A DNA stretch of 64,000 nt from Eubacteriales bacterium (GCA_024655885.1 JANLFN010000005.1:116007-180006), one strand, 5' to 3'. Shown: positions 1-32,108, counted from the first letter of the stretch. Notes: generated from the sequence alone by a model not told the origin. Made by a program: numbers and translations.

Positions 1-48
1 CAATCCCTGTGGTATTGGCCGTTAAACGGATACACAGGGGATAGTGTG

Positions 49-115
49 AGACAAGGGGACGGTTCTTGTGTCTGAGGTCTTCAGCACCTCAGACACAAGA
101 ACCGTCCCCTTGTCT
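49..115. repeat. REP-like palindrome (perfect 30-bp stem, 7-nt loop) built from two inverted copies of a GACAAGGGGACGGTTCTT-containing unit, immediately 3' of prfC
   Basis: Arms 49-78 and 86-115 are exact reverse complements. The same unit recurs at 9759-9821. A variant, GTGACAGGGGACGGTTC..., forms the ends of the elements at 24968, 28094, 31250 and 31517. Confidence 0.85.
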
Positions 116-120
116 TTGGC

Positions 121-1731
121 TTAAGCCAGGGCTTTAGCCGCAATGTCGGTGAGCACAAGCCCTTTATTGCGCTCTTCAGCCCAGCGGATGGACCATTCAT
201 TCTCAAAGAGAAGCACATACCTGCTTTCCTTGTCCTCTGTCACCGCCGTAGAACTTGTAAGATTCAGCTTTCTGGGGTCGACTTCCGCACTGCTTATCCA
301 GCGCGCGTGCTTGAAGGGAAGGTGGTGTATTTTGATATCCACACCGTATTCATGTTTGAGCCTGTGCTCCAGTACTTCAAACTGAAGCGCTCCCACAGCG
401 CCTATGATTAACTCCTCCATTCCTATGTCGATCTGCTTGAATACCTGTATGGCTCCCTCTTCCGAAAGCTGGTTAATCCCCTTCAAAAACTGCTTGCGCT
501 TCATGGAATCCGCCGCGTTCACCCTTGCGAAGTGCTCTGCAGGGAAAACGGGGATTCCTTCGAATTTCAGCTGGGGATTGCCCTCGCAAAGGGTATCCCC
601 GATGTTGAATATGCCCGGGTCAAATATCCCTATGATATCTCCGGGATAAGCTTCCTCAACAATGGTGCGCTCCTGGGCCATAAACTGCTGAGGCTGGGAA
701 AGCCTGACCTCTTTTCCCGCCTGGACGTGGTACACCGACATACCGCGGGTGAACTTTCCCGAACACACCCGAATAAAAGCGATTCTATCCCTGTGGGTGG
801 GATTCATGTTTGCCTGGATTTTAAAGATGAAGCCGGAGAATTTCTCACTTTCCGGGTCTACCTCGCCTGCTGTGGACAGCCTTATTCCAGGGGCCGGCGC
901 CAGCCTTAAAAAATCTTCCAGGAAGGGCTGAACCCCAAAATTTGTCATGGCACTGCCGAAGAAAATGGGTGTGAGTTCGCCTTTCATCACTTTTTTCCTG
1001 TCAAACTCATCGCCGGCCATATCCAGGAGCTCTATTTCCTCGCACAGGCGCTTATGGTAATGGTCCCCCAGCAGCTCGGAAAAGATTGGGTCGCCAACCT
1101 TTCCAATAGTTGACGCAACAGCGGTTTGCCCGTGTTCCCCGCCGTTGAAGAGCTCTATCTGTGCAAGGTTTCTGTTGTAAACGCCTTTAAAGTCGCCTTC
1201 GGTACCGATGGGCCAGTTCATGGGGTAGGAGCGTATGCCCAGTACCCGCTCTATTTCTTCCATGAGTTCAAAGGGGTCCTTGCTGGCCCTATCCATTTTA
1301 TTGACGAAGGTGAAAATGGGTATGCCGCGCATTTTACATACATGGAACAGCTTTATTGTCTGCGCTTCCACGCCTTTTGCCCCGTCAATCAACATGACTG
1401 CGCTGTCCGCCGCCACCAGGGTCCTGTAGGTATCCTCGCTGAAATCCTGATGGCCGGGAGTGTCAAGAATGTTAATACAGTAATCATTGTAGTTGAACTG
1501 CAAAACACTGGAGGTAACGGATATCCCCCTTTGCTTTTCGATTTCCATCCAGTCGGATACGGCGTATTTATTTGCCTTTCTTGCCTTAACCGACCCTGCA
1601 AGCCGGATAGCCCCTCCGTAGAGAAGAAGCTTTTCTGTCAATGTGGTTTTACCGGCATCCGGATGGGAGATGATGGCAAAGGTCCTCCTTCTTTTCACTT
1701 CTCTGCTTATTATGTCCTTCAAATCCTGCAT
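121..1731 (-). CDS. prfC: peptide chain release factor 3 (translational GTPase)
   Basis: 536-aa ORF with G-domain motifs AIISHPDAGKTT, DTPGH and NKMD, and full-length RF3-like organisation. Confidence 0.93.
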   Translation of the reverse strand: MQDLKDIISREVKRRRTFAIISHPDAGKTTLTEKLLLYGGAIRLAGSVKARKANKYAVSDWMEIEKQRGISVTSSVLQFNYNDYCINILDTPGHQDFSEDTYRTLVAADSAVMLIDGAKGVEAQTIKLFHVCKMRGIPIFTFVNKMDRASKDPFELMEEIERVLGIRSYPMNWPIGTEGDFKGVYNRNLAQIELFNGGEHGQTAVASTIGKVGDPIFSELLGDHYHKRLCEEIELLDMAGDEFDRKKVMKGELTPIFFGSAMTNFGVQPFLEDFLRLAPAPGIRLSTAGEVDPESEKFSGFIFKIQANMNPTHRDRIAFIRVCSGKFTRGMSVYHVQAGKEVRLSQPQQFMAQERTIVEEAYPGDIIGIFDPGIFNIGDTLCEGNPQLKFEGIPVFPAEHFARVNAADSMKRKQFLKGINQLSEEGAIQVFKQIDIGMEELIIGAVGALQFEVLEHRLKHEYGVDIKIHHLPFKHARWISSAEVDPRKLNLTSSTAVTEDKESRYVLLFENEWSIRWAEERNKGLVLTDIAAKALA

Positions 1732-7800: not shown

Positions 7801-7969
7801 ACCGGAGCCGTCGGACGAGAGGGAAGTAATGGAGCATGAAAGATTCCCCATGAGGTACCTGGATCCCGAGACAAGGAAGTCGTCTTTCGATGAGGTGGCT
7901 GTCGGGTTTTATAAGCTCAATGCGGTTGAAGAGGCCATGAGGTGCTTAAGGTGCGACAGGAGGGCATGA
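4871..7969 (+). CDS. hydB: NuoF/HydB-type flavoprotein subunit fused to a GltD/NfnB-type Fe-S + FAD/NAD(P)H oxidoreductase domain (1032 aa)
   Basis: N-terminal Trx-like 2Fe-2S region (CSGAGC...CIGDCNLGP). NuoF core with GRGGGGFPTGVKW and ESCGKCVPCRVG. This is followed by CQNACPAGV...CGRVCTHPCESKC, GIIGAGPSGLTCGYYLARLG and VIGGGNTAVDAART. Confidence 0.88.
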   Translation: MDGKLAVRRAEDLENIKNQYLSENSRYQYRVLVCSGAGCISSNCHAVKDALVKALQDSNLCDRVSVSETGCIGDCNLGPAMVVLPEGVLYTKLDPKDVGPIVDSHFLKGRIRMENTYYDIPKEKHIPFLKDIDYFKNQVKIALRNCGRIDYASLEEYIANDGYKSIARVLQDMTPAEVVKEIKKSGLRGRGGGGFPTGVKWEEGMKSEGDVKYIVCNADEGDPGAYMDRSILEGDPHSIIEGMMIGAYAIGASKGYVYIRAEYPLAVERLDTAIKKAREAGLLGENILESGFNFELEIRIGEGAFVCGEETALIASIEGKRGEPEQKPPYPSQKGLYGKPTVINNVETFANIPPIILKGSEWFTQYGTQGSKGTKVFALAGSVNNAGIVEVPMGITVGDIVFNIGGGIKKNKQFKALQSGGPSGGCVTKDHLNTPIDYDSLVKLGSIMGSGGLIALDEDTCMVDMAKYFMEFVQEESCGKCVPCRVGTKRMLEILERITKGEGQNGDIELLQEIGQMIKETSVCGLGQTAPNPVLSTIKSFREEYEEHIKYKHCRAGVCENMFISPCQNACPAGVNVPGYIALIAAGRLRDAYNLIRKENPFPAVCGRVCTHPCESKCRRAQLDDPIAISDLKRYVTDYVFKNEEPYMDLVFPKKGISVGIIGAGPSGLTCGYYLARLGYDVEVYEAHQVAGGVLAFGIPEFRLPKDILQHEIKLIERVGVKIHLNTEVGTDITFYQLRNKHAAIYIATGTQFPHKINIPGEELKEVYYGMDFLRYVSLGKKPKVTGTVAVIGGGNTAVDAARTALRLGAKKVYILYRRLIEDMPADARDVREAIEEGIEILPLVTPLRFLGKDRVTGVECIRMEFGEFDSTGRRKPKPIHGTEFTIKVDAVIPAISLYSDLPFINKNEVEVTQWGTFVADNDTLMTKMKGVFAGGDVIRGSDVVISAIADGKKAAKSIDKYLGGNGILNTGEDIEIPEPSDEREVMEHERFPMRYLDPETRKSSFDEVAVGFYKLNAVEEAMRCLRCDRRA

Positions 7970-9753
7970 CGATGGTAAACTTGACAATCAACAACAAAAA
8001 GATATGTGCGGCAGAGGAAATGACCATTCTTGAGGCGGCAAAGCAGAATAACATATTAATCCCCCATTTTTGCTCCATGGAGGGGATCCACCAGATAGGC
8101 TCATGCAGGATATGCGTCGTCGAGGTGGAGGGTGAAAAGACACTGCAGGCCTCCTGCAAGATCCGTGTAAAAGAGGGAATGGTTGTTTATACGAATACCG
8201 AAAAAGTGAAAAAAGCCCGGAAGCTGTTATATGAGCTGATGCTTTCCGACCACCCCAAGGACTGTTTAAATTGTACCAGAAACCAGAACTGTGAGTTTCA
8301 ACGGCTTGGTGAAATCATACAGGTCAGTGAATCCAGGTTTGAAGGCGAAAAATCGAAACCGGACAGGGACGATTCTTCTCCCTCCATCGTCAGGGATACC
8401 GCCAAATGCATCCTGTGCAGGCGCTGTGTAACCGTATGCAACGATGTGCAGGAAATTGGGGTGCTGAATGTTCAAAAACGCGGGTTTCATTCATTTGTGG
8501 GTCCAGCGGCGGGGCTTCCGCTCAACAGCGTCAACTGCACCTACTGCGGGCAGTGCATTAATGTTTGTCCTGTGGGAGCGCTGCAGGAAAAGGATTCCAC
8601 CCAGATGGTGTGGAATGCCCTGTATGACAGAAACAAGAGGGTCATAGTGCAAACCGCTCCTTCGGTGAGGGTGTCCCTTGGAGAAGAATTCGGATACGAA
8701 CCGGGTACGGTTGTGACGGGAAAAATGGTTACGGCCCTCCGTGATATAGGTTTTAACGATGTTTTTGATACAAGCTTTGGAGCGGATTTGACAGTTCTGG
8801 AAGAAAGCCATGAGCTGTTAAAGAGGATAAAAAATTCCTTTCTGGCAAAACAAGCGGCGCTGCCTATGATAACAAGCTGCAGTCCGGGCTGGATCAAGTA
8901 TTTCGAGCATGTTTTTCCCGAAAGGCTGGAACACCTGTCTACCTGCAAATCTCCCCACATGATGCTTGGGGCTTTGATAAAAACGTACTATGCGGATAAA
9001 ATAAAAGTAAATCCAAAGGATATTTTTGTAGTTTCGGTCATGCCGTGTACGGCAAAGAAATTTGAAATCACGAGACCTGAGCTGAAAAATAACGGCTTTC
9101 CCAATGTAGATGCGGTTTTGACAACCCGGGAGCTGGCGAGGATGATAAAAGAAGCGGGAATCGATTTCAGGAATCTGGAGGAGGGCGAATTTGATACTCC
9201 TCTGGGAATATCGGCAGGAGCGGGCAACCTGTTCGGAGCGGCCGGAGGCGTAGCGGAAGCGGTTTTAAGAACCGTTTACAGGACGGTCACGGGAAGGGAG
9301 CTTCAGCCGGGAATGGTTCACATACGTTCCATAAAAGGACAGGAGCACATCAAAGCCCTTGAGGTGAAAATAGAGAACACGGTGGAGGAATACAGGTTCA
9401 TAGACGGTGAAACACTTAAAGTGGCTGCAGCAAGCGGCATGAAGGGGATGAAAGCCTTTATGGAACAGCTGGAGGACGGTACCTCCCCGTACCACTTCAT
9501 TGAAGTTATGGGATGCCCCGGCGGTTGTATAAACGGCGGCGGGCAGCCGAGACCCAGCAACGAGTATGTGAGGAAAAAGCGTATGGAAGCGGTTCACAGC
9601 ATCGACAGGGGCAAAGCCTTAAGAGGCTCTCATGAAAATCCGGCCATAGCAAAGCTGTATGAGGAATTCCTGGCCGAACCGCTGGGAAAGAAGTCCGGTG
9701 AGCTGCTGCATACCAAATACACAAAAAGAGGAATCTATAACGAACTTATCTAA
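7966..9753 (+). CDS. hydA: [FeFe]-hydrogenase catalytic subunit, M3-type (2Fe-2S, His-ligated 4Fe-4S, 2x4Fe-4S, H-domain)
   Basis: Motifs HPKDCLNCTRNQNC, MPCTAKKFE and EVMGCPGGCINGGGQP are present. The first H-cluster motif reads TSCSPGW. The ATG at 7966 overlaps the hydB stop (ATGA). Confidence 0.9.
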   Translation: MTMVNLTINNKKICAAEEMTILEAAKQNNILIPHFCSMEGIHQIGSCRICVVEVEGEKTLQASCKIRVKEGMVVYTNTEKVKKARKLLYELMLSDHPKDCLNCTRNQNCEFQRLGEIIQVSESRFEGEKSKPDRDDSSPSIVRDTAKCILCRRCVTVCNDVQEIGVLNVQKRGFHSFVGPAAGLPLNSVNCTYCGQCINVCPVGALQEKDSTQMVWNALYDRNKRVIVQTAPSVRVSLGEEFGYEPGTVVTGKMVTALRDIGFNDVFDTSFGADLTVLEESHELLKRIKNSFLAKQAALPMITSCSPGWIKYFEHVFPERLEHLSTCKSPHMMLGALIKTYYADKIKVNPKDIFVVSVMPCTAKKFEITRPELKNNGFPNVDAVLTTRELARMIKEAGIDFRNLEEGEFDTPLGISAGAGNLFGAAGGVAEAVLRTVYRTVTGRELQPGMVHIRSIKGQEHIKALEVKIENTVEEYRFIDGETLKVAAASGMKGMKAFMEQLEDGTSPYHFIEVMGCPGGCINGGGQPRPSNEYVRKKRMEAVHSIDRGKALRGSHENPAIAKLYEEFLAEPLGKKSGELLHTKYTKRGIYNELI

Positions 9754-9758
9754 AGACA

Positions 9759-9826
9759 AGAGACAAGGGGACGGTTCTTCTGTCTGGTTTCACCAGACAG
9801 AAGAACCGTCCCCTTGTCTCTTTTTG
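9759..9826 (+). terminator. REP-like palindrome acting as the hydA terminator (30-bp perfect stem, then T-run)
   Basis: Arms 9759-9788 and 9792-9821 are exact reverse complements and are followed by TTTTT. The unit GACAAGGGGACGGTTCTT is shared with 49-115. Confidence 0.85.
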
Positions 9827-23990: not shown

Positions 23991-24971
23991 ATGAACAGTG
24001 TGTTCAAAGACATGCGTGCAAAGGGTAAGCCCTTGGGTAACTTTGAAGATAAGATCGGCAGACTCGGCGAAATTCTTAAACGTGATGATGTCATCAGAAG
24101 CTCTGAGAATTCTCGAAAACAAGGTGAAATACTCGGGAATCCTTTGGATAATGTGCCTTTTTTTAAAAAGTTGATGCTTTCGCCGATTTTGATGAGTATT
24201 ATGAAAGAATTGAATAAAAGCTATGACGGTATAGATACTCCAGTAAAAAAGAACCGGATAAATGAAGAAGAACTCCAAAAAATTGAAAAAAAGGCCAAGG
24301 AATTGGGGGCACTTTCAATCGGATATGCCAGAGTTGATAAGGAAGATATTTTTGAAGGTTACGGGATCGTTTATCCCAATGCTATTGTTTTTACAATTGA
24401 AATGGATAAGGAAAACATCAATAAAGCACCTAGTATTGATACAGCGAAAATGATTATGAAGACCTATGACCAAACCGGTATTGTTGCAAACAAGCTTACG
24501 GAATTCATACGTGAGATGGGCTTTGGCGCGCATGCCGGACCGGGTTTGGGAGGGCTGACAATTTATCCTGTGCTGGCTGAAAAGGCTAACTTGGGTATAA
24601 TCGGAAGACACGGACTGCTTATATCACCAGAAGTTGGTCCAAGATTACGGCTTGCTGTTGTATATACAAATATTGATAACCTTCCGTTAAAAAATGAAAA
24701 TACGCACAAATGGGTTCTGCAATTCTGTAAAAGCTGCGGCAAATGTATCAGGAAGTGTCCTGACGGTGCAATCTATAACACACCAGTTAAAACCAAGGGT
24801 GAGCATGTTTCATATATGGACTATAAAAAATGTGCTGTACATTTTGCCGAATGGTTTGGCTGCACGGTTTGTGTCAAAGAATGTGTGTTTAGCCAGAATG
24901 ACTATCAGGATATCAAAGAAAATTTCTTTCAAAATAAGGATAAGTCCGAAGCGAATGAGTATAAAATGTGA
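23991..24971 (+). CDS. Fe-S oxidoreductase of the reductive-dehalogenase/QueG superfamily (326 aa, no signal peptide)
   Basis: GIIGRHGLLISPEVGPRLRLAVVYTN core, followed by CKSCGKCIRKCP and a second Cys cluster (CAVHFAEWFGCTVCVKEC). Confidence 0.6.
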   Translation: MNSVFKDMRAKGKPLGNFEDKIGRLGEILKRDDVIRSSENSRKQGEILGNPLDNVPFFKKLMLSPILMSIMKELNKSYDGIDTPVKKNRINEEELQKIEKKAKELGALSIGYARVDKEDIFEGYGIVYPNAIVFTIEMDKENINKAPSIDTAKMIMKTYDQTGIVANKLTEFIREMGFGAHAGPGLGGLTIYPVLAEKANLGIIGRHGLLISPEVGPRLRLAVVYTNIDNLPLKNENTHKWVLQFCKSCGKCIRKCPDGAIYNTPVKTKGEHVSYMDYKKCAVHFAEWFGCTVCVKECVFSQNDYQDIKENFFQNKDKSEANEYKM

Positions 24972-25225
24972 CAGGGGACGGTTCTTTGTCACGCAATGCT
25001 CATAAGTGGCATAATCCCCAAAACCTAAACAGGAGGGGGATGCTATGCCAAGACGTATTCGAAGTTTGAGCAGCAGAAAAATATACCATGTGATGGCACG
25101 CGGCAACGAAAGAAAGAACCTATTCATGTAAGAAGACAGAGCAAGGTATATAGAGGCTTTATCCAGGGCCAGAGGGCACTCTTCCGGCGGAATTAAAACA
25201 ATACGCCAAGGGTGCCCTGTTTTTT
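24968..25225 (+). mobile_element. RAYT/IS200-like element remnant, copy A (left terminal unit, truncated Y1-transposase N-terminus, hairpin/T-run; right terminal unit missing)
   Basis: The terminal unit GTGACAGGGGACGGTTCTTTGTCAC spans 24968-24992. An AGGAGG RBS precedes an ORF (25045-25131) reading MPRRIRSLSSRKIYHVMARGNERKNLFM*. The copy is near-identical to copy C. Confidence 0.75.
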
Positions 25226-25242
25226 AAAGTAGGAAACTTGAG

Positions 25243-25686
25243 TTAATTACTTTCTTGTTCAGCAAAATAATTAATAATATTTGAGCCGACTTTTTCTATT
25301 AATTCGAACAGTTGCTCCTTTTGATCCTGGGAAAAGTTCTCTAACATTATTTTATTCCAGGAATCAAGGACATTTTCAAGATACTCCCTAACAGCGGCAG
25401 CTTTTTTTGTAGTATATAATTTTTGGGCCCGTTTATCATCTTCGCTGGTCATTCTAAAAACATAGCCTTCCTTTTCTAACTTTTTAATAGCTCTTGCTGT
25501 TGTGGCCTTGTCTAGTTTTACCAACTTAGAGAGTTGTTCCTGGATAATTCCATTATTATCGTACAACGTCATTAGAAATTGATATTGACCACTTCCTAAA
25601 TTATATTTGTTTAATAATGGGTTAAAAAATATTTGGCTGTACCGATAAATTAATGAAATATGCTTACCGAATCTGTCCGTATCCAT
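25243..25686 (-). CDS. MarR-family transcriptional regulator
   Basis: 147 aa with a winged-helix region (QEQLSKLVKLDKATTARAIKKLEKEGYV). ATG 25686 is preceded by GGAGGA. Confidence 0.85.
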   Translation of the reverse strand: MDTDRFGKHISLIYRYSQIFFNPLLNKYNLGSGQYQFLMTLYDNNGIIQEQLSKLVKLDKATTARAIKKLEKEGYVFRMTSEDDKRAQKLYTTKKAAAVREYLENVLDSWNKIMLENFSQDQKEQLFELIEKVGSNIINYFAEQESN

Positions 25687-25990
25687 TTTTTCCTCCATGA
25701 ATAGGTTATAGTCATGTCTAAAAAATTGAAATATAGTTACATGTGCAATCATTTAATTGTATATAAAATTATTGTCTAAGTAAAGTATCATAAAAGCCTA
25801 TATACTTTGTTTTTATAGATTATCATCATAGGAATTTCAAATATCTATTAAACTCAACGGATTATCATGTATTGTATAATGATAGAATTATACAAAATAA
25901 GTTGCAAATGCAACATTTTGTGTTATAATATAGTTGCATACGCAATTATATTATAACACAATAAAATTAATTCTATAGGAGGTATTTTTT

Positions 25991-27037
25991 ATGATTATTG
26001 ACATCAATATGCACCACCTTCCCGAAGATTTTTTTACCAACGAGAAGATTCTGAATGGTTTTTTGAACACGGCGCCCCGCTCATTTGGAGAGATCGTGAC
26101 TTTGAGTAAAGTACCTGATACCGGCGCCCACCAGCTCACTCTCGAAAAACCAAAAGGCTATCCGAACCTCAACTACGTTGAGGGCGATTATTCACTCGAG
26201 GCTAAGCTTCGGGCGATGGATGACGCCGGCGTCGACAAGGCTATACTTCGCGTGCCGGTTTGGCAGGAGTGGCTACAGCTTGAAACATGCAAGATCGTAA
26301 ATGACAACGCGGCAGACATGTGCAAGCGATCAGGCAGCCGCCTTTATTCGGTCGCTTGTGTTCCGCCCTGGGGAGGTAAGGAGAACATTTATGAGCTCGA
26401 ACGCTGTCTAAAGGAACTCGGAATGGTCGGTGTCCAACTGGCCTGCCATTACGGACAGCTTTACCTCGACGACGAGGCCTTTAAGCCCTACTTGAAGGTT
26501 CTTAACGAGATGAACGTGCCGGTCGTTGTTCATCATACCCCACTGCCGGTCTACTGGCAGTCCATCTATGAATATACGAATCTGCGCCGTGAGTTCGGCC
26601 GCATCGTCGACCAGGGTACTGCTGTGGGACGCGAGTTGTTCAGCGGCATGTTCGACGAATTCCCGAACCTCAAATTCATCCACACCATGTTCGGCGGCAA
26701 CTGGTTTGCAAACTACCACCTGCTTGCGCCCCACAAGAGCAACAAGAAGGAAGCTATATCGCGTTTGGATACCGCCGATGCCGACAGGATTACGCGCTAT
26801 CTGCAGAATAATATCTACTTCGACATGACTCACCCGGCCTCTTGGGGCAAAGCGGAAGTCGAGTGTGCGATCAAGGTCTGCGGCGCCGACCACATGTTGT
26901 TTGGCACTTCGTTCCCGGTGGTCTATGGTTGGATGTCACAAGGTGTCGAGTTTGTCAAAGCTCTGGACATCACAGAGGAGGAACGCGAACTCATCATGAA
27001 TGGGAATGCTCTTCGTCTCTTCAAGCTCGACGTATAG
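25991..27037 (+). CDS. amidohydrolase-2 (ACMSD/LigW-type metal-dependent hydrolase/decarboxylase) family protein
   Basis: 348 aa with N-terminal IDINMHH, a later HH pair (VVVHHTP) and a C-terminal FGTSFP...NALRLF pattern. GC is markedly higher than in the flanks. Confidence 0.75.
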   Translation: MIIDINMHHLPEDFFTNEKILNGFLNTAPRSFGEIVTLSKVPDTGAHQLTLEKPKGYPNLNYVEGDYSLEAKLRAMDDAGVDKAILRVPVWQEWLQLETCKIVNDNAADMCKRSGSRLYSVACVPPWGGKENIYELERCLKELGMVGVQLACHYGQLYLDDEAFKPYLKVLNEMNVPVVVHHTPLPVYWQSIYEYTNLRREFGRIVDQGTAVGRELFSGMFDEFPNLKFIHTMFGGNWFANYHLLAPHKSNKKEAISRLDTADADRITRYLQNNIYFDMTHPASWGKAEVECAIKVCGADHMLFGTSFPVVYGWMSQGVEFVKALDITEEERELIMNGNALRLFKLDV

Positions 27038-27130
27038 GAGGAAGGCAATGATTGAAGTTCTTTATGCGGTGTGTGTGACTGGTTATGTTGCAATATTCTG
27101 CTGTTAAAAACGTCCCAAACTGCAGAAGGT

Positions 27131-27405
27131 ATGGAACGTTTCAAAACGGATGCAGATAGATTCAGAGGTTACTTTAAGGAAAATTTATTCTTTGATATGT
27201 TGCACGCTGGGCCGTGGGGTAAAGAACAAGTAGAGTGTGCGATTAAAGCATGTGATGCTGACCATGTTTTTTTGGCTCTTCTTATCCTGTTAGACATGAG
27301 TGGCTGATCAAAGGCATTGATTATGTTAAGAGCCTGAATGTCAGCGGAGAAGAAAAAGCTTTGGTTCTCGGTGGAAATGCACAAAGATTATTTAATATTC
27401 GATAA
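27131..27405 (+). pseudogene. 3' remnant of a paralogous amidohydrolase-2 gene (5'-truncated and frameshifted)
   Basis: ERFKTDADRFRGYFKENLFFDMLHAGPWGKEQVECAIKACDADH aligns to residues ~255-300 of the intact gene. Adding 1 nt in the T7 run at 27267-27273 restores VFFGSSYPVRHEWLIKGIDYVKSLNVSGEEKALVLGGNAQRLFNIR*. Confidence 0.8.
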
Positions 27406-27445
27406 GCTGAGTATTAAAGAACTATTTAGTTTTAAATCTGTATGT

Positions 27446-27488
27446 TTTACCCAGGATAACCTAATTTTATAAAGTTATCCTGGGTAAA
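27446..27488. terminator. 15-bp perfect hairpin (TTTACCCAGGATAAC / GTTATCCTGGGTAAA)
   Basis: Read directly. It lies between the amidohydrolase remnant and the MarR remnant. Confidence 0.6.
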
Positions 27489-27564
27489 TCTAGAAAGGAA
27501 AAAATTGAAAATCCCATGTGTATTTATGAATAAAGAATGTTTTTCTACTTGCTTACCTGAATAT

Positions 27565-27747
27565 TCATTGGAGAATGAAAATTAACTTAGAAAGCTGTTC
27601 CTGGATAATTTCATTATTATCGTATAAAGTCATGAGAAACTGGTATTGGCCACTTCCTAAACCATATTTGCTTAATAATGGATTAAGAAATAAATGGCTG
27701 TACCGATAAATTAATGAAATATGTTTGCCGAATCTGTCCGTGTCCAT
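27565..27747 (-). pseudogene. 5' remnant of a paralogous MarR gene, with a duplicated copy of its promoter region
   Basis: MDTDRFGKHISLIYRYSHLFLNPLLSKYGLGSGQYQFLMTLYDNNEIIQEQLSKL is near-identical to the N-terminus of 25243-25686 and then diverges to a stop. 27748-27880 resembles 25687-25830. Confidence 0.8.
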
Positions 27748-27919
27748 TATTACCCCCATTAATAAAGTCATTTCTAACAAGTGAAATATAGTTACATATG
27801 CAACCATTTAATTGTACATAAAATTATAGGCTAAGTAAAGTATTATAAAAGCCAATATCTATGTTTTGATAAATTATTATCTCGTCAAGAGTAAATAAAC
27901 ACCCTTTTCAAGGGCGCTC

Positions 27920-27948
27920 TTGACATGTCATTTGCTTTTCTCTATAGT
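27920..27948 (+). promoter_or_regulatory. orphan sigma-A-type promoter TTGACA-17-TATAGT
   Basis: Read directly. It is followed by a 9-bp hairpin (27957-27987), and no ORF precedes the hairpin/T-run of element copy B. Confidence 0.4.
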
Positions 27949-28033
27949 ATAATCAAGGCTTGTAAACCAACATCTGGCTTACAAGCCCCAAAAGATCATC
28001 ATAGAAAGCAATTTACAGAAAAAGTTTCACATA

Positions 28034-28118
28034 ATCCAGGGCGCTCTTCCGGCGGAATTAAAACAACACGCCAAGGGTGCCCTGTTTTTTAGTGCGACAA
28101 AGAACCGTCCCCTGTCGC
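28034..28118 (+). mobile_element. RAYT/IS200-like element remnant, copy B (hairpin/T-run plus right terminal unit only)
   Basis: ATCCAGGGCGCTCTTCCGGCGGAATTAAAACAACACGCCAAGGGTGCCCTGTTTTTT is followed by GCGACAAAGAACCGTCCCCTGTCGC (28094-28118). The latter is the inverted form of the copy A left unit. Confidence 0.75.
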
Positions 28119-28145
28119 ATGCAACAAATGAAAATACATGCCATC

Positions 28146-29036
28146 TCATTTCCATTCATGATTTGAGACAGTATCTATGAAAACTTGTATGGAAGAATCC
28201 AGATTGCCTTTCCGCCAGGCTAATGACATATCTAAGTAAACCTCTGTGCTATCAAAATCAATATAAACAATTTTAGGGTTATCAAACCTCCGGAAGGAAC
28301 GGGGAACAGGGGATACACCCAAACCTGAAGCTACCATTGCTATAGCGCTTTCGTATTTCGATACCAGTGTAGCTTTTTTCATATCGACACCTGCCCTTAA
28401 CAACCTGTAGTGGATTTTAGACAGACTGATAGGTGCAAATTGATTATTGGACATGATTACTCTTACTCCGTCCAGATCTTGTGCCGAAATACTGCTTTTT
28501 GAAGCAAGCGGATGGTGAACGGGGACAGCGAGACAGGCAAATTCTCTAAAGAGTAATCTTTGCTCTATTTCAGGCATGTTTTCTATTTCAGATTTCTCTA
28601 TAAAAATGACATCTAGGGAATCCTTAATCAACATTTCCTTTAACTCACCCCATCCGGCAATTTGTAATTCAATGTGAATATTAGGATGATCCTGGTAAAA
28701 TCTACTCAGAACGTCAGGTAACAGTGCCCAATCTACCGGACCATGATAACCGACCCTTAGGGAGGAACCCTCTTCAATAGATATTTGTTTTGCTTTCAGC
28801 AATGCTTTTTCATATAGAGACATAACATTTTCCAACTCTTTTTTTAGACACTCCCCAGCAGCTGTGAGCTTTACATAATGTTTATTACGAATGAAAAGTT
28901 TTGCTCCAATCTCTTTTTCCATAGCGTTGATTTGGGATGTAATAGTGGATTGCGCGACAAATTGCTCTTCAGCTGCTCTTGTAAAATTTAAATGTTTTGC
29001 AACACTTAAAAAACACTTAATAGTATGTGTATTCAA
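28146..29036 (-). CDS. LysR-family transcriptional regulator
   Basis: 296 aa with an N-terminal HTH (FLSVAKHLNFTRAAEEQFVAQSTITSQINAMEKEIG) and a LysR substrate-binding region. Confidence 0.88.
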   Translation of the reverse strand: MNTHTIKCFLSVAKHLNFTRAAEEQFVAQSTITSQINAMEKEIGAKLFIRNKHYVKLTAAGECLKKELENVMSLYEKALLKAKQISIEEGSSLRVGYHGPVDWALLPDVLSRFYQDHPNIHIELQIAGWGELKEMLIKDSLDVIFIEKSEIENMPEIEQRLLFREFACLAVPVHHPLASKSSISAQDLDGVRVIMSNNQFAPISLSKIHYRLLRAGVDMKKATLVSKYESAIAMVASGLGVSPVPRSFRRFDNPKIVYIDFDSTEVYLDMSLAWRKGNLDSSIQVFIDTVSNHEWK

Positions 29037-29395
29037 GCAACCTCCTCCTATTCGTCCACTTATATTATATTATAGTAGATATCCGTGCTTTATTAAATAT
29101 TAAAAAATATCTATGTTTATTAATATATTACCTTCATCTATTCCCGAAATTTTGTAATTGATTTATTCGATTATATAAGCAAAAATATGAATTTCCATAT
29201 GTTTTTTGATTGGGCTATAATACAGTTGAACTCGTAAATTCTAATGTTCATGCCACAGCAGTCCTATGCTTCAAGCTTAAGAGAACAATGTGATGTTTGT
29301 TGGAGGTATGGGCGAAATTTCAGACCTCATAACATAGGACTCGAAAGCAGTTAGAGTCTACGATGGAATTAAAAAACATAGGGGGGTAGAATGAA

Positions 29396-30955
29396 TTGAG
29401 GAAAGGTAAAAAAATACTAGCGTTGTTTTTGGCATTGTTGGTGGTAATTAGTATTGCAGGTTGCAGCTCACCAACTGGCAATGAAAAACAAACAGCGGCT
29501 CCCGCTACGCCTACAGCTATGGATACCGCCACTAAACAAGCTGATGTTGTAGTTGTCGGGAGTGGTATGGCCGGTATGTCGGCGGCAATTGAAGCAGCCA
29601 GTCAAGGTGCGAAAGTAATTTTGTTGGAAAAAATGGGTGTTCTAGGTGGAAGCACAAATCATGCTGAAGGTATGTTCGCCAGTGAAAGTCCGCTTCAAAA
29701 GAAATTGGGCATCACGGTTAACACGGAGGAATTGTTAAGGGAAGAGTTCAACTTTTCAAACTATAGAGTGGACGGCAACCTGTGGAAAGATGTCATGAAA
29801 CATTCAGGCGAGGATATTCAATGGCTCCTCGATATGGGCGTAAAGTTTGAAACGGTAACCAGTACAGGTGCCGGCGCGAAGACATGGCATGTGTATGAAG
29901 GATTTGGAGAAAAAGTAATTAACGCATACATGAAGCCAAAAGCCGAAAAGCTTGGCGTGGAGATCCTGCTTGAAACTCCTGCCAAAGAGCTTATCATGAA
30001 AGATGGACAGGTGGCCGGTGTTAAAGCAACTACGAAGGACGGAAAAGAATTAGCCATTAGTGCGAAGGCCGTTGTTCTCGCAACAGGCGGTTTTGGAAAC
30101 AATGAGCAAATGGTTAAAGAATTTACGCATGCTACCAAAGAAAAATATGTTGACAGGGGTGCGCCCGGACATACGGGTGACGGAATCAACATGGCGAAAG
30201 CAGCCGGTGCCCTTACGGGTGAACGTGCGATCGTCATGCAGCTGGGAAATACGCTGGAAAGTTCTTTTATTACTACACATATTAATGCAGCAGCCGGCAT
30301 GGAACCGTCTCTTTGGGTGAATCAAGACGGTAAGCGTTTTTGCAATGAGGATGTTATTTGGTATTATACCCGCGGCAGCAATGCAATCATGTCACAATAT
30401 AAAACCTTTACCGTTTTGGACAGCAACGAGGTTAAGAGGCTTGCTACCGAAGGTGCTACCGTTGGCTACGGCATGTATGTAACCCCCGGCACAAAATTGG
30501 ATAAATTGGAGGCTGAGCTTCAGAAGGCGGTTGCTGATAAAGCTCCCGATGTATTTAAAGCTGATACAATTGAAGAGCTTGCAGCCAAAATGGGGGTTGA
30601 CAAAGCTAATTTCGTAGAAACTGTCAATACCTACAACGCTTTTTGTGCGAATGGAAAAGACCTTGATTACGGCAAGAATCCCAAGTATCTTCATGCTGTG
30701 AAAACCGGTCCGTTTTACGGCTTCCGCGTAAAAGCAAATAACCTCACTTCCTGTGGTGGTATAAGAATCAATGAGAATTGTGAAGCATTGAATAAAGATT
30801 ACCAACCGATCAAAGGACTTTATGTTGCAGGAATGGATTGTGACGGCTTTACCGGTGATACCTACGGATTAACGATTCCCGGTTCAGCTCAAGGTTATTC
30901 TTGTTACACCGGTAGAACCAGCGGGAAAAATGCCGCTCAGTATGCCAAGCAATAA
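29396..30955 (+). CDS. lipoprotein-anchored FAD-dependent reductase of the fumarate/urocanate reductase flavoprotein family (FAD_binding_2)
   Basis: Lipobox LVVISIAGC|SS after a basic N-terminus. The dinucleotide fold VVVVGSGMAGMSAAIEAA is present. The C-terminal GLYVAGMDCDG motif is typical of soluble flavocytochrome-type reductases. TTG start after AGGGGGG. Confidence 0.75.
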   Translation: MRKGKKILALFLALLVVISIAGCSSPTGNEKQTAAPATPTAMDTATKQADVVVVGSGMAGMSAAIEAASQGAKVILLEKMGVLGGSTNHAEGMFASESPLQKKLGITVNTEELLREEFNFSNYRVDGNLWKDVMKHSGEDIQWLLDMGVKFETVTSTGAGAKTWHVYEGFGEKVINAYMKPKAEKLGVEILLETPAKELIMKDGQVAGVKATTKDGKELAISAKAVVLATGGFGNNEQMVKEFTHATKEKYVDRGAPGHTGDGINMAKAAGALTGERAIVMQLGNTLESSFITTHINAAAGMEPSLWVNQDGKRFCNEDVIWYYTRGSNAIMSQYKTFTVLDSNEVKRLATEGATVGYGMYVTPGTKLDKLEAELQKAVADKAPDVFKADTIEELAAKMGVDKANFVETVNTYNAFCANGKDLDYGKNPKYLHAVKTGPFYGFRVKANNLTSCGGIRINENCEALNKDYQPIKGLYVAGMDCDGFTGDTYGLTIPGSAQGYSCYTGRTSGKNAAQYAKQ

Positions 30956-30978
30956 TCTCATTCCTTGGCAGCTTCCCA

Positions 30979-31188
30979 TTGCTCTTTGTGGATGAATACG
31001 GTAAAAGGTTCATTAATGAGCAGGTATTCAAAGAACAAGCCCTCAATGTAGGAAATGGGAAAATCATTGATAAGCGAGATTATTTCGTTTTTATGGATAA
31101 GCCAAATGTTGATTCTCTCGGTGGCGTTGAAATCAATACCAAAGCTGAAGCTGTAAATAACTATTTTTGCTCTTTCCTTGAGCAATAG
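30979..31188 (+). pseudogene. heavily deleted remnant of a paralogous flavoprotein reductase
   Basis: LFVDEYGKRFINEQV resembles LWVNQDGKRFCNEDV, and LGGVEINTKAEAVNN resembles CGGIRINENCEALNK of the intact gene. Confidence 0.5.
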
Positions 31189-31249
31189 ACGAAATAAACA
31201 AATTTCTTGGTAGTATCAACGATACAGCTCAACAGACAAACCTTCTATA

Positions 31250-31541
31250 TGTGACAGGGGACGGTTCCTCGACACACATGCTCATAAATGGCATAGTCTC
31301 CCAAACCTAAACAGGAGGGGGATGCTATGCCAAGACGTATTCGTAGCTTGAGCAGCAGCAAAATATACCGTGTGATGGTACGCGGCAACGAAAGAAAGAA
31401 CCTATTCATGGATGAAGAAGGCAGAGCAAGGTATGTAGAGGCTTTATCCAGGGCTGCAGGGCACTCTTCCGGCGGAATTAAAGCAAACACGCCAAGAGTG
31501 CCCTGTTTTGTGAAGTGTGACAAAGAACCGTTCCCTGTCAC
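31250..31541 (+). mobile_element. RAYT/IS200-like element, copy C: complete 292-bp non-autonomous (MITE-like) derivative with both terminal units
   Basis: The left unit is GTGACAGGGGACGGTTCCTCGACAC (31250-31274). The right unit is GTGACAAAGAACCGTTCCCTGTCAC (31517-31541), in inverted orientation. The internal ORF begins MPRRIRSLSSSKIYRVMVRGNERKNLFMDEEGRARYVEAL, a Y1-transposase N-terminus, and then runs into the hairpin. Confidence 0.8.
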
Positions 31542-31591
31542 GTTCGGTATAATTATTTCTAAATGGTCAAATAATACTTGTAGGTGATTGA

Positions 31592-32101
31592 ATGATATAC
31601 ATATACAGCTGTTATGCAGGCACTCATTCTTCCTCTATTGCGGCGGCGCTGCATTTGAAGAGGATTCGGGAAGACAGGATACCCACAAAAAGTGAGATAC
31701 TAAACATAGAGTATTTTAACAAGCTGAAAAAGAAGGACATGGGAAGGATTATATACCGGGGTATGGATGAAGACGGGAACAAGGTCTATACACTGGGCAG
31801 AGGCACCTCCAATATTTTGCTCCCGTGTATAAAAGACCTTGTTACAATTTTGCAAAGTGAAAGTGGGCTAAATGAAAAAATAGTGCTTTCAAATATGTCC
31901 CCTTGCGTAACCGTGTCCATGAGTGTCGGGGGATTCCTCTCCAGGCGCCTGGGGCTGGATTTCATAGGAGTGCCGTTTTTAATCATAGGCTGCCAACTGG
32001 GTTTCAGAAATATTGTAAGGGTGGTAAACCATACAAAGGAGGCGGCTAAAAACTCCAGTGACAATGTGCTTGTGCTTATGAACGATCTCCGCCGAATGTG
32101 A
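31592..32101 (+). CDS. DUF3189-like protein (169 aa)
   Basis: The N-terminus IYIYSCYAGTHSSSIAAALHL matches my recollection of the DUF3189 family signature. The function is unknown. Confidence 0.5.
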   Translation: MIYIYSCYAGTHSSSIAAALHLKRIREDRIPTKSEILNIEYFNKLKKKDMGRIIYRGMDEDGNKVYTLGRGTSNILLPCIKDLVTILQSESGLNEKIVLSNMSPCVTVSMSVGGFLSRRLGLDFIGVPFLIIGCQLGFRNIVRVVNHTKEAAKNSSDNVLVLMNDLRRM

Positions 32102-32108
32102 CAGGGGA
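32096..32108 (+). repeat. solo fragment of the element terminal unit (ATGTGACAGGGGA)
   Basis: The 13-mer is identical to the junctions at 24966 and 31248. It supplies the TGA stop of the DUF3189-like ORF. Confidence 0.6.

What the first reader, a model, noticed from the sequence alone, without database searches (positions are those of the whole stretch)
24968..32108. A 7-kb mosaic accessory island is delimited and subdivided by RAYT-remnant elements, and the terminal units donate stop codons to flanking genes
The segment order is as follows.
- Element copy A (left unit, transposase stub and hairpin; no right unit).
- MarR and an amidohydrolase, followed by remnants of both.
- Copy B (hairpin and right unit only).
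- LysR and a lipoprotein flavoenzyme, followed by a remnant.
- Complete copy C.
- A DUF3189-like gene.
- A solo 13-nt unit fragment.

Copies A and B together look like one element split by ~2.8 kb of cargo, or like recombination between two copies.

At three junctions the sequence ATGTGACAGGGGA supplies the in-frame TGA stop of the upstream ORF. These are the RDH/QueG-like gene at 24969-24971 and the DUF3189-like gene at 32099-32101. The same 13-mer also occurs at 31248. A specific 13-mer is expected ~0.002 times by chance in this window. The insertions therefore sit exactly at, or have replaced, the native 3' ends of these genes.
Basis: partly seen in the sequence, partly recalled or inferred. 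Interest (0 to 1): 0.6.

Follow-up and report, generated by a model that had tools for sequence, protein, structure and literature searches.

The report
Decayed RAYT cassettes ending host genes
Three copies and one stub of a dead, internally deleted REP/RAYT transposase cassette sit at gene 3' ends in a variable 7-kb stretch, and their hairpin unit supplies the TGA stop of two host genes; this turns out to be a general habit of this widespread repeat family, but it is a known kind of behaviour for REP elements.

Summary
ATGTGACAGGGGA occurs exactly three times (24966, 31249, 32096), and its TGA is the stop of the RDH-like gene and the DUF3189 gene.

The 13-mer is the 5' half of a 25-nt hairpin unit, GTGACA-GGGGACGGTTCTT-TGTCAC. 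In many Bacillota, and some Bacteroidota and Actinomycetota, this unit flanks a ~265-aa Y1/HUH transposase of RAYT type in inverted orientation.

- **Copy C** (31249-31543) is a complete 295-bp internally deleted cassette: unit, 76-nt leader, first ~43 codons, terminator hairpin, inverted unit.
- **Copies A and B** are its left and right parts. Both carry the hairpin, so they are not one element simply split.
- **Family-wide test:** in 295 unit ends from other genomes, 22 long ORFs stop exactly at the unit's TGA and only 6 read through (p about 1e-6).

Stop donation is therefore a family property. The analogous behaviour is already published for GTAG REPs.

The "island" reading is only partly supported:
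- The cargo is mosaic and low in GC.
- DUF3189 belongs to the conserved backbone.
- No empty site could be found.
- Both proteins keep normal-length tails.

Verdict: real, a new member of a known kind, of moderate interest.

The parts
23991..24971 (+). RDH-domain/4Fe-4S protein gene (326 aa). Its last codon ATG and stop TGA (24969-24971) lie in the left unit of copy A.
   Evidence: ORF list. TIGR02486 RDH 91 bits, below cutoff, plus Fer4 domains. C-terminal tail variable among homologues.
24966..25230 (+). Copy A: left unit (24966-24992), 76-nt leader, 28-codon stub (25045-25131, ends in TAA), terminator hairpin (25173-25226). The right unit is missing; homology stops exactly at its inner edge.
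   Evidence: 89.6% identical to C 31249-31516. tblastn of full-length RAYTs hits 25045-25161. Hairpin folds at -14.1 kcal/mol, z -3.7.
25243..25752 (-). MarR-family regulator (cargo module 1). Its 3' end lies 13 nt from the end of copy A.
   Evidence: Pfam MarR, 2.5e-14.
25991..27037 (+). Amidohydrolase_2 enzyme (cargo module 1). GC ~53% against 30-40% in its neighbours.
   Evidence: Pfam PF04909, 3.7e-28. Composition profile.
27092..27399 (+). Frameshifted C-terminal remnant of a distant amidohydrolase paralogue (aa 243-346, 44% identical).
   Evidence: tblastn.
27580..27858 (-). N-terminal remnant of a second MarR gene (aa 1-78, 73% aa identity) plus its promoter region. About 87-89% nt identity to 25523-25803.
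   Evidence: Repeat families D1 and D4. tblastn.
28037..28120 (+). Copy B: terminator hairpin (28038-28091) and inverted right unit (28094-28118). Left unit, leader and stub are absent.
   Evidence: 89% identical to C 31457-31539; 96.3% to A over the 54-bp hairpin. Inverted repeat I7 with the A left unit, 96% complementary.
28146..29036 (-). LysR-family regulator (cargo module 2).
   Evidence: Pfam HTH_1 and LysR_substrate.
29396..30955 (+). Lipoprotein-type FAD flavoenzyme resembling vinyl phenol reductase (cargo module 2).
   Evidence: Pfam FAD_binding_2, 3e-54. NF053717 VprA 479 bits, below the 600 cutoff.
30979..31188 (+). Decayed, internally deleted fragment of a paralogous flavoenzyme.
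   Evidence: BLASTP to aa 306-350 and 449-466 of the intact enzyme, E 4e-4 and 9e-4.
31249..31543 (+). Copy C, the complete 295-bp miniature cassette: left unit (31249-31275), 76-nt leader with RBS, stub (ATG at 31327, RAYT-homologous to about codon 43), hairpin (31458-31511), inverted right unit (31517-31541).
   Evidence: Stub matches by phmmer and tblastn. Hairpin -17.2 kcal/mol, z -4.4. Same 76-nt unit-to-ATG spacing as full-length genes in L036, L177, L178 and L197.
31592..32101 (+). DUF3189 gene (169 aa), a backbone gene. Its last codon ATG and stop TGA (32099-32101) lie in the solo unit fragment.
   Evidence: Pfam DUF3189, 3e-47. Homologue alignment. Synteny in L003 and L128.
32096..32108 (+). 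Solo 13-nt 5' half of a unit (14 nt shared with copy A), truncated after GGGGA. It fills the 11-nt gap between the convergent DUF3189 and lyase genes.
   Evidence: Exact match. No fold. No homology beyond GGGGA.
48..115 (.). Inverted doublet (REPIN-like) of a sister subfamily of the unit (AGACA-A-GGGGACGGTTCTT-G-TGTCT), 5 nt after the stop of ORF 121-1731 (-).
   Evidence: Inverted repeat I2, 30-nt arms, 100% complementary. ORF list.
9758..9822 (.). Second inverted doublet of the sister subfamily, 4 nt after the stop of ORF 7942-9753 (+), followed by a T-run.
   Evidence: Inverted repeat I1, 31-nt arms, 100% complementary. Folds at -39.4 kcal/mol, z -15. ORF list.

Best explanation
**What the repeats are.** They belong to a REP-type hairpin family. 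The unit has a 6-8-bp stem, (A)TGTGACA / TGTCACA(T), around a near-invariant loop, GGGGACGGTTCTT. Its natural setting is as an inverted pair around a ~265-aa Y1/HUH tyrosine transposase of RAYT type with a C-terminal helix-turn-helix.

**The four pieces in the window.**
- Copy C is an internally deleted, non-autonomous version of such a cassette. It keeps both units, the promoter/leader and the first ~43 codons, fused to a strong terminator-like hairpin.
- A and B are the left and right portions of the same deleted cassette type.
- The solo 13-mer is the 5' half of a unit.
- None encodes the HUH or Tyr motifs, so any movement would need a full-length enzyme in trans. None is present in this window.

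**How the stop codon arises.** Units of this family lie at or just after gene 3' ends. In the window they sit mostly between convergent genes. The stem reads G-TGA-CA inward from either side, so a unit that overlaps a gene end in one of the three frames terminates the protein at once. Insertions in the other two frames would add a long foreign tail and are rarely kept. This explains why the RDH-like and DUF3189 genes both end ...ATG TGA inside the unit while keeping their conserved domains.

**The DNA between the copies.** It is a low-GC, mosaic stretch of two regulator-enzyme modules (MarR + amidohydrolase_2; LysR + vinylphenol-reductase-like flavoprotein). Each module is followed by decayed paralogue fragments.

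**Inferred, not shown.** The three same-orientation copies served as portable homology for recombination. One example is Campbell-type integration of a circle through the hairpin, which would give [L-stub-hairpin]-cargo-[hairpin-R] for A...B. On this reading the copies were not transposon ends that carried the cargo in.
For: **Shown**
- The stub aligns to residues 1-40 of 264-273-aa proteins at 50-60% identity, E 6e-6 to 8e-4 against 1.8e9 proteins. tblastn gives E 1e-9 to 1e-11 in the window.
- Those proteins and the unit-flanked examples carry Y1_Tnp, and match NCBIfam REP_Tyr_transpos at 74 bits against a cutoff of 80.
- Twelve full-length genes with HUH and Y motifs were found in unit-containing loci. 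Five are flanked on both sides by inverted units. Four have the left unit 76 nt before the ATG, as in copy C.
- Independent internally deleted derivatives flanked by the same units occur in L154, L179, L208, L225 and L251.
- Among 295 non-redundant unit ends, 116 have an open frame of at least 120 codons stopping within -150 to +90 nt. Of these, 22 stop exactly at the unit's TGA, no other offset exceeds 4, and only 6 read through. Against the 1/3 frame expectation p = 1.2e-6; without the RAYT genes' own ORFs, about 17 against 6, p = 8e-5.
- The window's doublets lie 4-5 nt after stops.
- A and C share the same stub-to-hairpin junction, so the deleted form was itself copied.

**Published precedent.** GTAG REP termini often provide the TAG stop of flanking ORFs (PMC3733652).
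Against: - No full-length RAYT is in the window, and the rest of the source genome could not be searched. Mobility in this organism is therefore untested.
- No close relative with an empty site exists in the data. The best are 61-68% aa identical, with no upstream synteny. Insertion history and any role of the copies in assembling the cargo are inference.
- Single units fold only weakly as ssDNA (-4 to -6 kcal/mol, z -1.1 to -2.5).
- The loci used for the statistics were chosen by pattern and sample many organisms unevenly.
- One DUF3189 orthologue ends at the same codon with an unrelated TGA. The unit may therefore have replaced a native stop rather than changed the protein.
Confidence: 0.7

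Rival explanations
1. A...B (24966-28120) is a single unit-bounded composite element. A RAYT cassette captured the MarR-amidohydrolase cargo between its ends and can be moved as a 3.15-kb block by a RAYT acting in trans.
For: - The outer units are inverted and 24/25 complementary (I7).
- A ends exactly at the inner edge of the missing right unit.
- The A and B hairpins are closer to each other (96%) than either is to C (about 89%).
Against: - The hairpin is present in both A and B, which a simple insertion into one element does not produce.
- The cargo contains dead paralogue fragments.
- No second copy of the block, or of its hairpin, was found in any fetched locus.
- Single host genes bracketed by inverted units are common simply because units occupy intergenic DNA.
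Confidence: 0.12
2. The copies are bystanders. REP-type units and their decayed cassettes settled independently into the safest spots (3' ends, mostly between convergent genes) of a region already variable for other reasons. The partial copies are later deletions.
For: - Units lie at gene 3' ends family-wide.
- A, B and the solo fragment each sit between convergent genes.
- The doublets elsewhere in the window lie just after stops.
- The DUF3189/lyase junction is variable in relatives that show no units there.
Against: - Three copies of one particular internally deleted cassette, sharing the same deletion junction and the same orientation, lie within 6.6 kb, with none in the other 57 kb. This points to local duplication or recombination rather than independent arrivals.
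- A and B break exactly at element landmarks.
Confidence: 0.3
3. The TGA is native rather than donated. The element prefers to insert at or against a pre-existing TGA stop (target-site choice, as IS200/IS605 elements choose a short flanking motif), so the protein ends are unchanged.
For: - The DUF3189 orthologue in L252 ends at the same codon position with TGA in an unrelated context.
- DUF3189 has a typical length.
- The spike is at exactly offset 0, with very few read-through cases.
Against: - The TGA is part of the paired stem on both sides of the unit, with G at -1 in 88% of ends, so it belongs to the element.
- Other DUF3189 orthologues end 3 codons earlier or later, and with 18 orthologues one coincidence is expected.
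- The RDH-like tail is 8-13 aa longer than in its four closest homologues.
Confidence: 0.2
4. The arrangement is a metagenome assembly artefact: chimeric joins at the repeats.
For: The source is a metagenome contig (JGI 3300038743 Ga0417229_000138), and repeats can mis-join contigs.
Against: - The copies are only 89-96% identical, and their longest exact shared stretches are about 36 nt or less, shorter than usual final k-mers.
- The flanking proteins are recorded on two contigs, 107 kb and 485 kb.
- Gene order across the junctions is coherent.
Confidence: 0.04

Closest known systems
REP / RAYT systems (repetitive extragenic palindromes with REP-associated tyrosine transposases; Nunvar 2010 PMC2817692; Bertels 2017 PMC5581495, whose Group 1 is also found in Clostridia)
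   Same: - A Y1/HUH transposase gene flanked by inverted short hairpin repeats.
- The same repeats are scattered in extragenic 3' positions.
- Inverted doublets are present.
   Different: - The unit lacks the GTAG tag. Its conserved part is a 13-nt loop kept across phyla, although the flanked proteins are as little as 35% identical.
- The enzyme carries a C-terminal HTH.
- The copies in the finding are dead internal-deletion cassettes, not bare REPs.
GTAG-tagged REPs that supply TAG stop codons (Di Nocera et al. 2013, PMC3733652)
   Same: The terminus of the repeat provides the stop codon of the adjoining ORF, and repeats abut or overlap coding regions.
   Different: - The stop here is TGA, inside the paired stem, and available from either side of the unit.
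- The family is from Bacillota, a phylum not listed in that survey.
- Here the frame bias was quantified: 22 stop at the TGA against 6 that read through.
REPINs (Bertels and Rainey 2011, PMC3116915)
   Same: Two units in inverted orientation forming a long hairpin; seen at 48-115 and 9758-9822.
   Different: The elements of the finding are 295-bp cassettes that retain the transposase 5' end and a terminator, not 60-110-bp doublets.
MITE/PATE-type internal-deletion derivatives of IS200/IS605-family elements
   Same: - Small and non-coding for an active enzyme.
- Both ends are kept.
- Several copies share one deletion junction (A and C).
- No target-site duplication.
   Different: Only three copies were seen, all within 6.6 kb and two of them partial. 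There is no evidence of dispersal in the genome.

Membership tests
REP/RAYT system | Y1 HUH transposase with HUH and catalytic Tyr motifs | tested here: not met
   The window's stubs cover only residues 1-28 (A) and about 1-43 (C) and lack both motifs. No full-length gene is in the window. Full-length relatives elsewhere have both motifs, so the window holds remnants, not a working member.
REP/RAYT system | Transposase gene flanked by inverted copies of the repeat | tested here: met
   Copy C has inverted units at both ends. The full-length genes in L036, L066, L177, L197 and L224 are flanked likewise.
REP/RAYT system | Sequence membership of the enzyme (Pfam Y1_Tnp; NCBIfam REP_Tyr_transpos) | tested here: inconclusive
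   The unit-flanked full-length protein from L051 scores Y1_Tnp 42.8 bits (cutoff 23) but REP_Tyr_transpos 74.4 bits against a cutoff of 80. The stub alone hits no model.
REP/RAYT system | Repeat abundant and mostly extragenic in the host genome | tested here: inconclusive
   There are 8 cores in 64 kb against 0.8 expected, all extragenic or at gene ends. The genome-wide count for the source organism could not be obtained.
REP/RAYT system | Enzyme cleaves and joins the repeat as single-stranded DNA | not testable with these tools
   Needs biochemistry.
MITE-like non-autonomous element | Short, with terminal inverted repeats, no active transposase, and multiple dispersed copies sharing one structure | tested here: inconclusive
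   Size (295 bp), inverted ends and a dead ORF are met. A and C share the deletion junction. Copies are clustered rather than dispersed, and the hairpin was found in no other fetched locus.
Genomic (accessory) island | Present/absent polymorphism against related genomes at a defined site | tested here: inconclusive
   The nearest relatives are 61-68% aa identical. Downstream synteny exists only from DUF3189 onward. The relatives' contigs break 118 and 197 nt upstream of DUF3189. No empty site was recovered.
Genomic (accessory) island | Atypical composition | tested here: met
   GC is 30-42% from about 23.4 to 29.3 kb, except the 53% amidohydrolase, against about 50% in the flanking ClpB and lyase genes. 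The compositional boundary includes the RDH-like gene, so it does not coincide with copy A.
Composite transposon bounded by element ends | The same bounded block found at another site, or clean ends with nothing duplicated inside | tested here: not met
   The hairpin is duplicated inside A...B. No second copy of the block was found.

The most novel reading that the evidence does not exclude
The units of this cross-phylum RAYT family may be more than parasites parked at gene ends. They could act as portable 'stop codon plus terminator' modules. Together with decayed cassettes they could serve as single-strand recombination sites that shuffle regulator-enzyme modules, loosely like attC sites at the 3' ends of integron cassettes. 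A...B would then be a captured cargo. The truncated units ending at GGGGA| (the window's solo fragment and the partial unit in L251) might mark the enzyme's cleavage point next to CGTC.
Probability: 0.1. Interest if true: 0.65.

Novelty: new member of a known kind. Interest (0 to 1): 0.35.

Why it matters
- **Annotation.** It identifies a REP/RAYT family that is widespread in Bacillota, the phylum where such systems are least described. The family has a strikingly conserved 13-nt core. This gives annotators a simple reason why many genes in these genomes end in ...G TGA CA GGGGACGG.
- **Selection.** The 22 against 6 frame bias is direct evidence that selection, or target choice, shapes where such repeats may overlap genes.
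- **This locus.** It marks a variable stretch carrying phenolic-acid-type catabolic modules.
- **Limits.** It does not reveal a new mechanism. Stop donation by REP termini and internal-deletion derivatives of Y1 transposons are both known.

Tried and rejected
- **Word-index protein search with the 46-aa stub** found only the window's own ORF.
- **Pfam, NCBIfam and PDB searches with the stub alone** found nothing. The exhaustive phmmer search was needed.
- **Rfam** found no family for the units or the hairpin, at gathering or E-value thresholds.
- **Empty-site search** through the closest DUF3189 and RDH-like homologues found no upstream synteny. Two relatives' contigs end just before DUF3189.
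- **Plasmid collection.** The 7-kb block has no match beyond a weak amidohydrolase hit. RAYT relatives are rare and distant there.
- **Breakpoint hypothesis.** I tested whether truncated units pile up at one breakpoint, which would suggest a cleavage site. There were 8 prefix-10 cases against about 3 expected by chance, and some of them are just variant units, so this is not significant.
- **Cargo capture.** Genes bracketed by inverted units 0.7-1.3 kb apart turned out to be ordinary single host genes, which is uninformative.
- **Literature.** The motif GGGGACGGTTC gave no relevant paper. A search for RAYTs in Clostridia was swamped by unrelated hits. A search for REP effects on translation termination returned no directly relevant paper.
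- **Integron-like cassette array** was considered and not adopted: there is no integrase, and the repeats are RAYT-cassette derived.

Full report
**1. The observation**

The 13-mer ATGTGACAGGGGA occurs exactly at 24966, 31249 and 32096 on the + strand. Its TGA is the stop of ORF 23991-24971 and of ORF 31592-32101. The third copy ends no real gene.

Repeat finding and alignment confirm the layout:
- A = 24966-25230, 89.6% identical to C.
- B = 28037-28120, 89% identical to C.
- C = 31249-31543, complete.
- A 13-nt solo fragment at 32096-32108.

The three remnants are real:
- MarR' covers aa 1-78 at 73% identity.
- Amidohydrolase' covers aa 243-346 at 44% identity and is frameshifted.
- The flavoenzyme fragment matches aa 306-350 and 449-466 of the intact enzyme.

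**2. What the repeat is**

The 13-mer is the 5' half of a 25-nt hairpin unit, GTGACA-GGGGACGGTTCTT-TGTCAC. The core GGGGACGGTTC occurs 8 times in the window against 0.8 expected. Four of these are in two perfect inverted doublets of a sister subfamily, at 48-115 and 9758-9822.

The small ORF inside A and C looked like a transposase N-terminus, but it gave no hit with the word-index search, Pfam, NCBIfam or PDB. An exhaustive phmmer search gave 59 hits. These include the N-termini (residues 1-40) of 264-273-aa proteins at 50-60% identity, along with many short stubs.

A pattern scan for the unit found more than 118 stretches in reference genomes. They span Lachnospiraceae, Oscillospiraceae, Syntrophomonadaceae, Pelotomaculum, Desulfosporosinus, Thermoanaerobacter and Virgibacillus, and also Coriobacteriia, Prevotellaceae and Muribaculaceae. 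A second scan found more than 120 stretches in metagenomes.

In those loci:
- Twelve full-length genes of 248-325 aa carry HUH and Y motifs.
- Five are flanked on both sides by inverted units.
- Four have the left unit exactly 76 nt before the ATG, the same spacing as in copy C.
- The L051 protein tested scores Pfam Y1_Tnp, and NCBIfam 'REP-associated tyrosine transposase' at 74 bits against a cutoff of 80.

The window's stubs stop before the HUH motif, and no full-length gene lies in the window. The elements are therefore dead, internally deleted REP-RAYT-REP cassettes. A and C share the same stub-to-hairpin junction, so the deleted form was itself copied. Independent deletion derivatives with the same ends occur elsewhere, in L154, L179, L208, L225 and L251.

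The internal hairpin folds strongly (-13 to -17 kcal/mol, z -2.6 to -4.4) and is followed by a T-run. Single units fold weakly. The hairpin sequence is specific to this contig among all fetched loci.

**3. Stop-codon donation**

The stem reads G-TGA-CA inward from either side of the unit. I took 295 non-redundant unit ends from the fetched loci and asked where open frames of at least 120 codons stop.
- 116 ends have such a frame stopping within -150 to +90 nt of the unit's TGA.
- 22 stop exactly at the unit's TGA.
- No other single offset exceeds 4 cases.
- There is a shoulder of stops at -4 to -20 nt.
- Only 6 frames read through the unit.

Against the one-in-three frame expectation, 22 of 28 gives p = 1.2e-6. 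Four of the 22 ORFs carry the transposase N-terminal motif and so are the RAYT genes themselves. One or two more look like remnants. Leaving about five out gives roughly 17 of 23, p = 8e-5. Position -1 is G in 88% of ends, so the TGA belongs to the paired stem.

Both genes in the window follow this family rule. So do the two doublets, which lie 4-5 nt after stops. [quoted passage not shown]

**4. Did the units replace native ends?**

This remains unresolved.
- DUF3189 is 169 aa against 165-182 aa in homologues. Conservation runs to ...VLVLMND, followed by a variable tail of 1-10 residues.
- The orthologue in L252 ends at the same codon with TGA in an unrelated context.
- L003 ends three codons later and L128 three codons earlier.
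- The RDH-like tail is among the longest of a variable set, 8-13 aa beyond its four closest homologues.
- At most the last one or two codons are unit-derived, and no conserved domain is affected.

**5. The 'island'**

GC falls from about 50% (ClpB) to 30-42% from about 23.4 kb. This is before the RDH-like gene, so copy A is not the compositional boundary. The amidohydrolase stands out at 53%.

The two closest relatives keep the order DUF3189...lyase-(DUF4901)-S26 peptidase-AMP-binding. DUF3189 is therefore backbone, and the variable block ends at copy C. Between DUF3189 and the lyase those relatives carry three or two extra genes. The window has only the solo half-unit there, so the fragment marks a second variable junction.

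Upstream synteny could not be assessed. Both relatives' contigs end 118 and 197 nt before DUF3189, and more distant genomes place DUF3189 or the RDH-like gene in unrelated contexts. No plasmid carries the block.

**6. A and B**

Both carry the 54-bp hairpin at 96.3% identity, closer to each other than either is to C. A stops exactly at the inner edge of the missing right unit, and B starts at the foot of the hairpin. A simple split of one element would not duplicate the hairpin.

The pattern [left-stub-hairpin]-cargo-[hairpin-right] is what homologous integration of a circle through the hairpin, or unequal exchange between two direct copies, would give. That is inference.

The composite-transposon reading is not excluded, because the outer units are 24/25 complementary. 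It lacks support, because no second copy of the block exists in the data. Gene-sized DNA bracketed by inverted units is common anyway.

A, B and the solo fragment each lie between convergent genes. These are the positions where insertions are least harmful, so part of the 'delimiting' pattern may simply reflect where such repeats survive.

**7. Verdict**

Stop donation is real and general for the family. The island-building role and the replacement of native ends are unproven.

It is a new member of a known kind (REP/RAYT with miniature derivatives). The useful extras are a quantified frame bias and a core conserved across phyla although the flanked enzymes are as little as 35% identical.

Noticed in passing
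window 48-115 and 9758-9822: There are two perfect inverted doublets (REPIN-like, 30-31-nt arms) of a sister subfamily of the unit. Each lies 4-5 nt after a gene's stop, and the second is followed by a T-run, so they probably also act as terminators.
   Followed up: partly
loci L036, L066, L177, L197, L224 (and the scans): The 11-13-nt core GGGGACGGTTC(TT) is identical around RAYT genes whose proteins are only 35-38% identical. It is found in Bacillota, Bacteroidota and Actinomycetota MAGs. The DNA site is far more conserved than the enzyme, although the sample was chosen by this pattern.
   Followed up: partly
L066, L139, L177, L197: The RAYT gene's own stop codon is the TGA of its right-hand unit.
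   Followed up: partly
window 24986-25015 and 31269-31297: The 3' stem of the left unit overlaps a -35-like hexamer (TTGTCA / TCGACA) with a TG-extended -10 downstream. The unit-to-ATG distance is a constant 76 nt here and in four full-length genes. This suggests the enzyme's promoter is built into its binding site. These are consensus matches only.
   Followed up: no
window 25243-27037 and 28146-30955: Both cargo modules look like phenolic-acid metabolism: a MarR regulator with an amidohydrolase_2 (decarboxylase-type) enzyme, and a LysR regulator with a flavoprotein that scores 479 bits on the vinyl phenol reductase model (cutoff 600). The amidohydrolase has 53% GC among 30-40% neighbours.
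   Followed up: no
window 25918-25961: A 20-nt inverted repeat (95% complementary, 4-nt gap) overlaps a TATAAT in the MarR-amidohydrolase intergenic region. It is a likely MarR operator.
   Followed up: no
L003 1-118 and L128 1-197: The contigs of the two closest relatives both end just upstream of DUF3189. This hints at a repeat or a variable segment at the same place in those genomes.
   Followed up: no
window 32096-32108; L251 184-196; L189, L149: Partial units truncated after GGGGA(C), next to the CGTC of the opposite strand, recur. Some lie directly beside a complete unit. The counts are not above chance overall.
   Followed up: partly
L003 tail against window 32089-32108: The relative's DUF3189 tail reads ...CGAAGGGGATTT, where the window reads ...CGAA[TGTGACA]GGGGAAAT. 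The window looks like the relative plus 7 nt. This could be coincidence at 68% protein identity.
   Followed up: no
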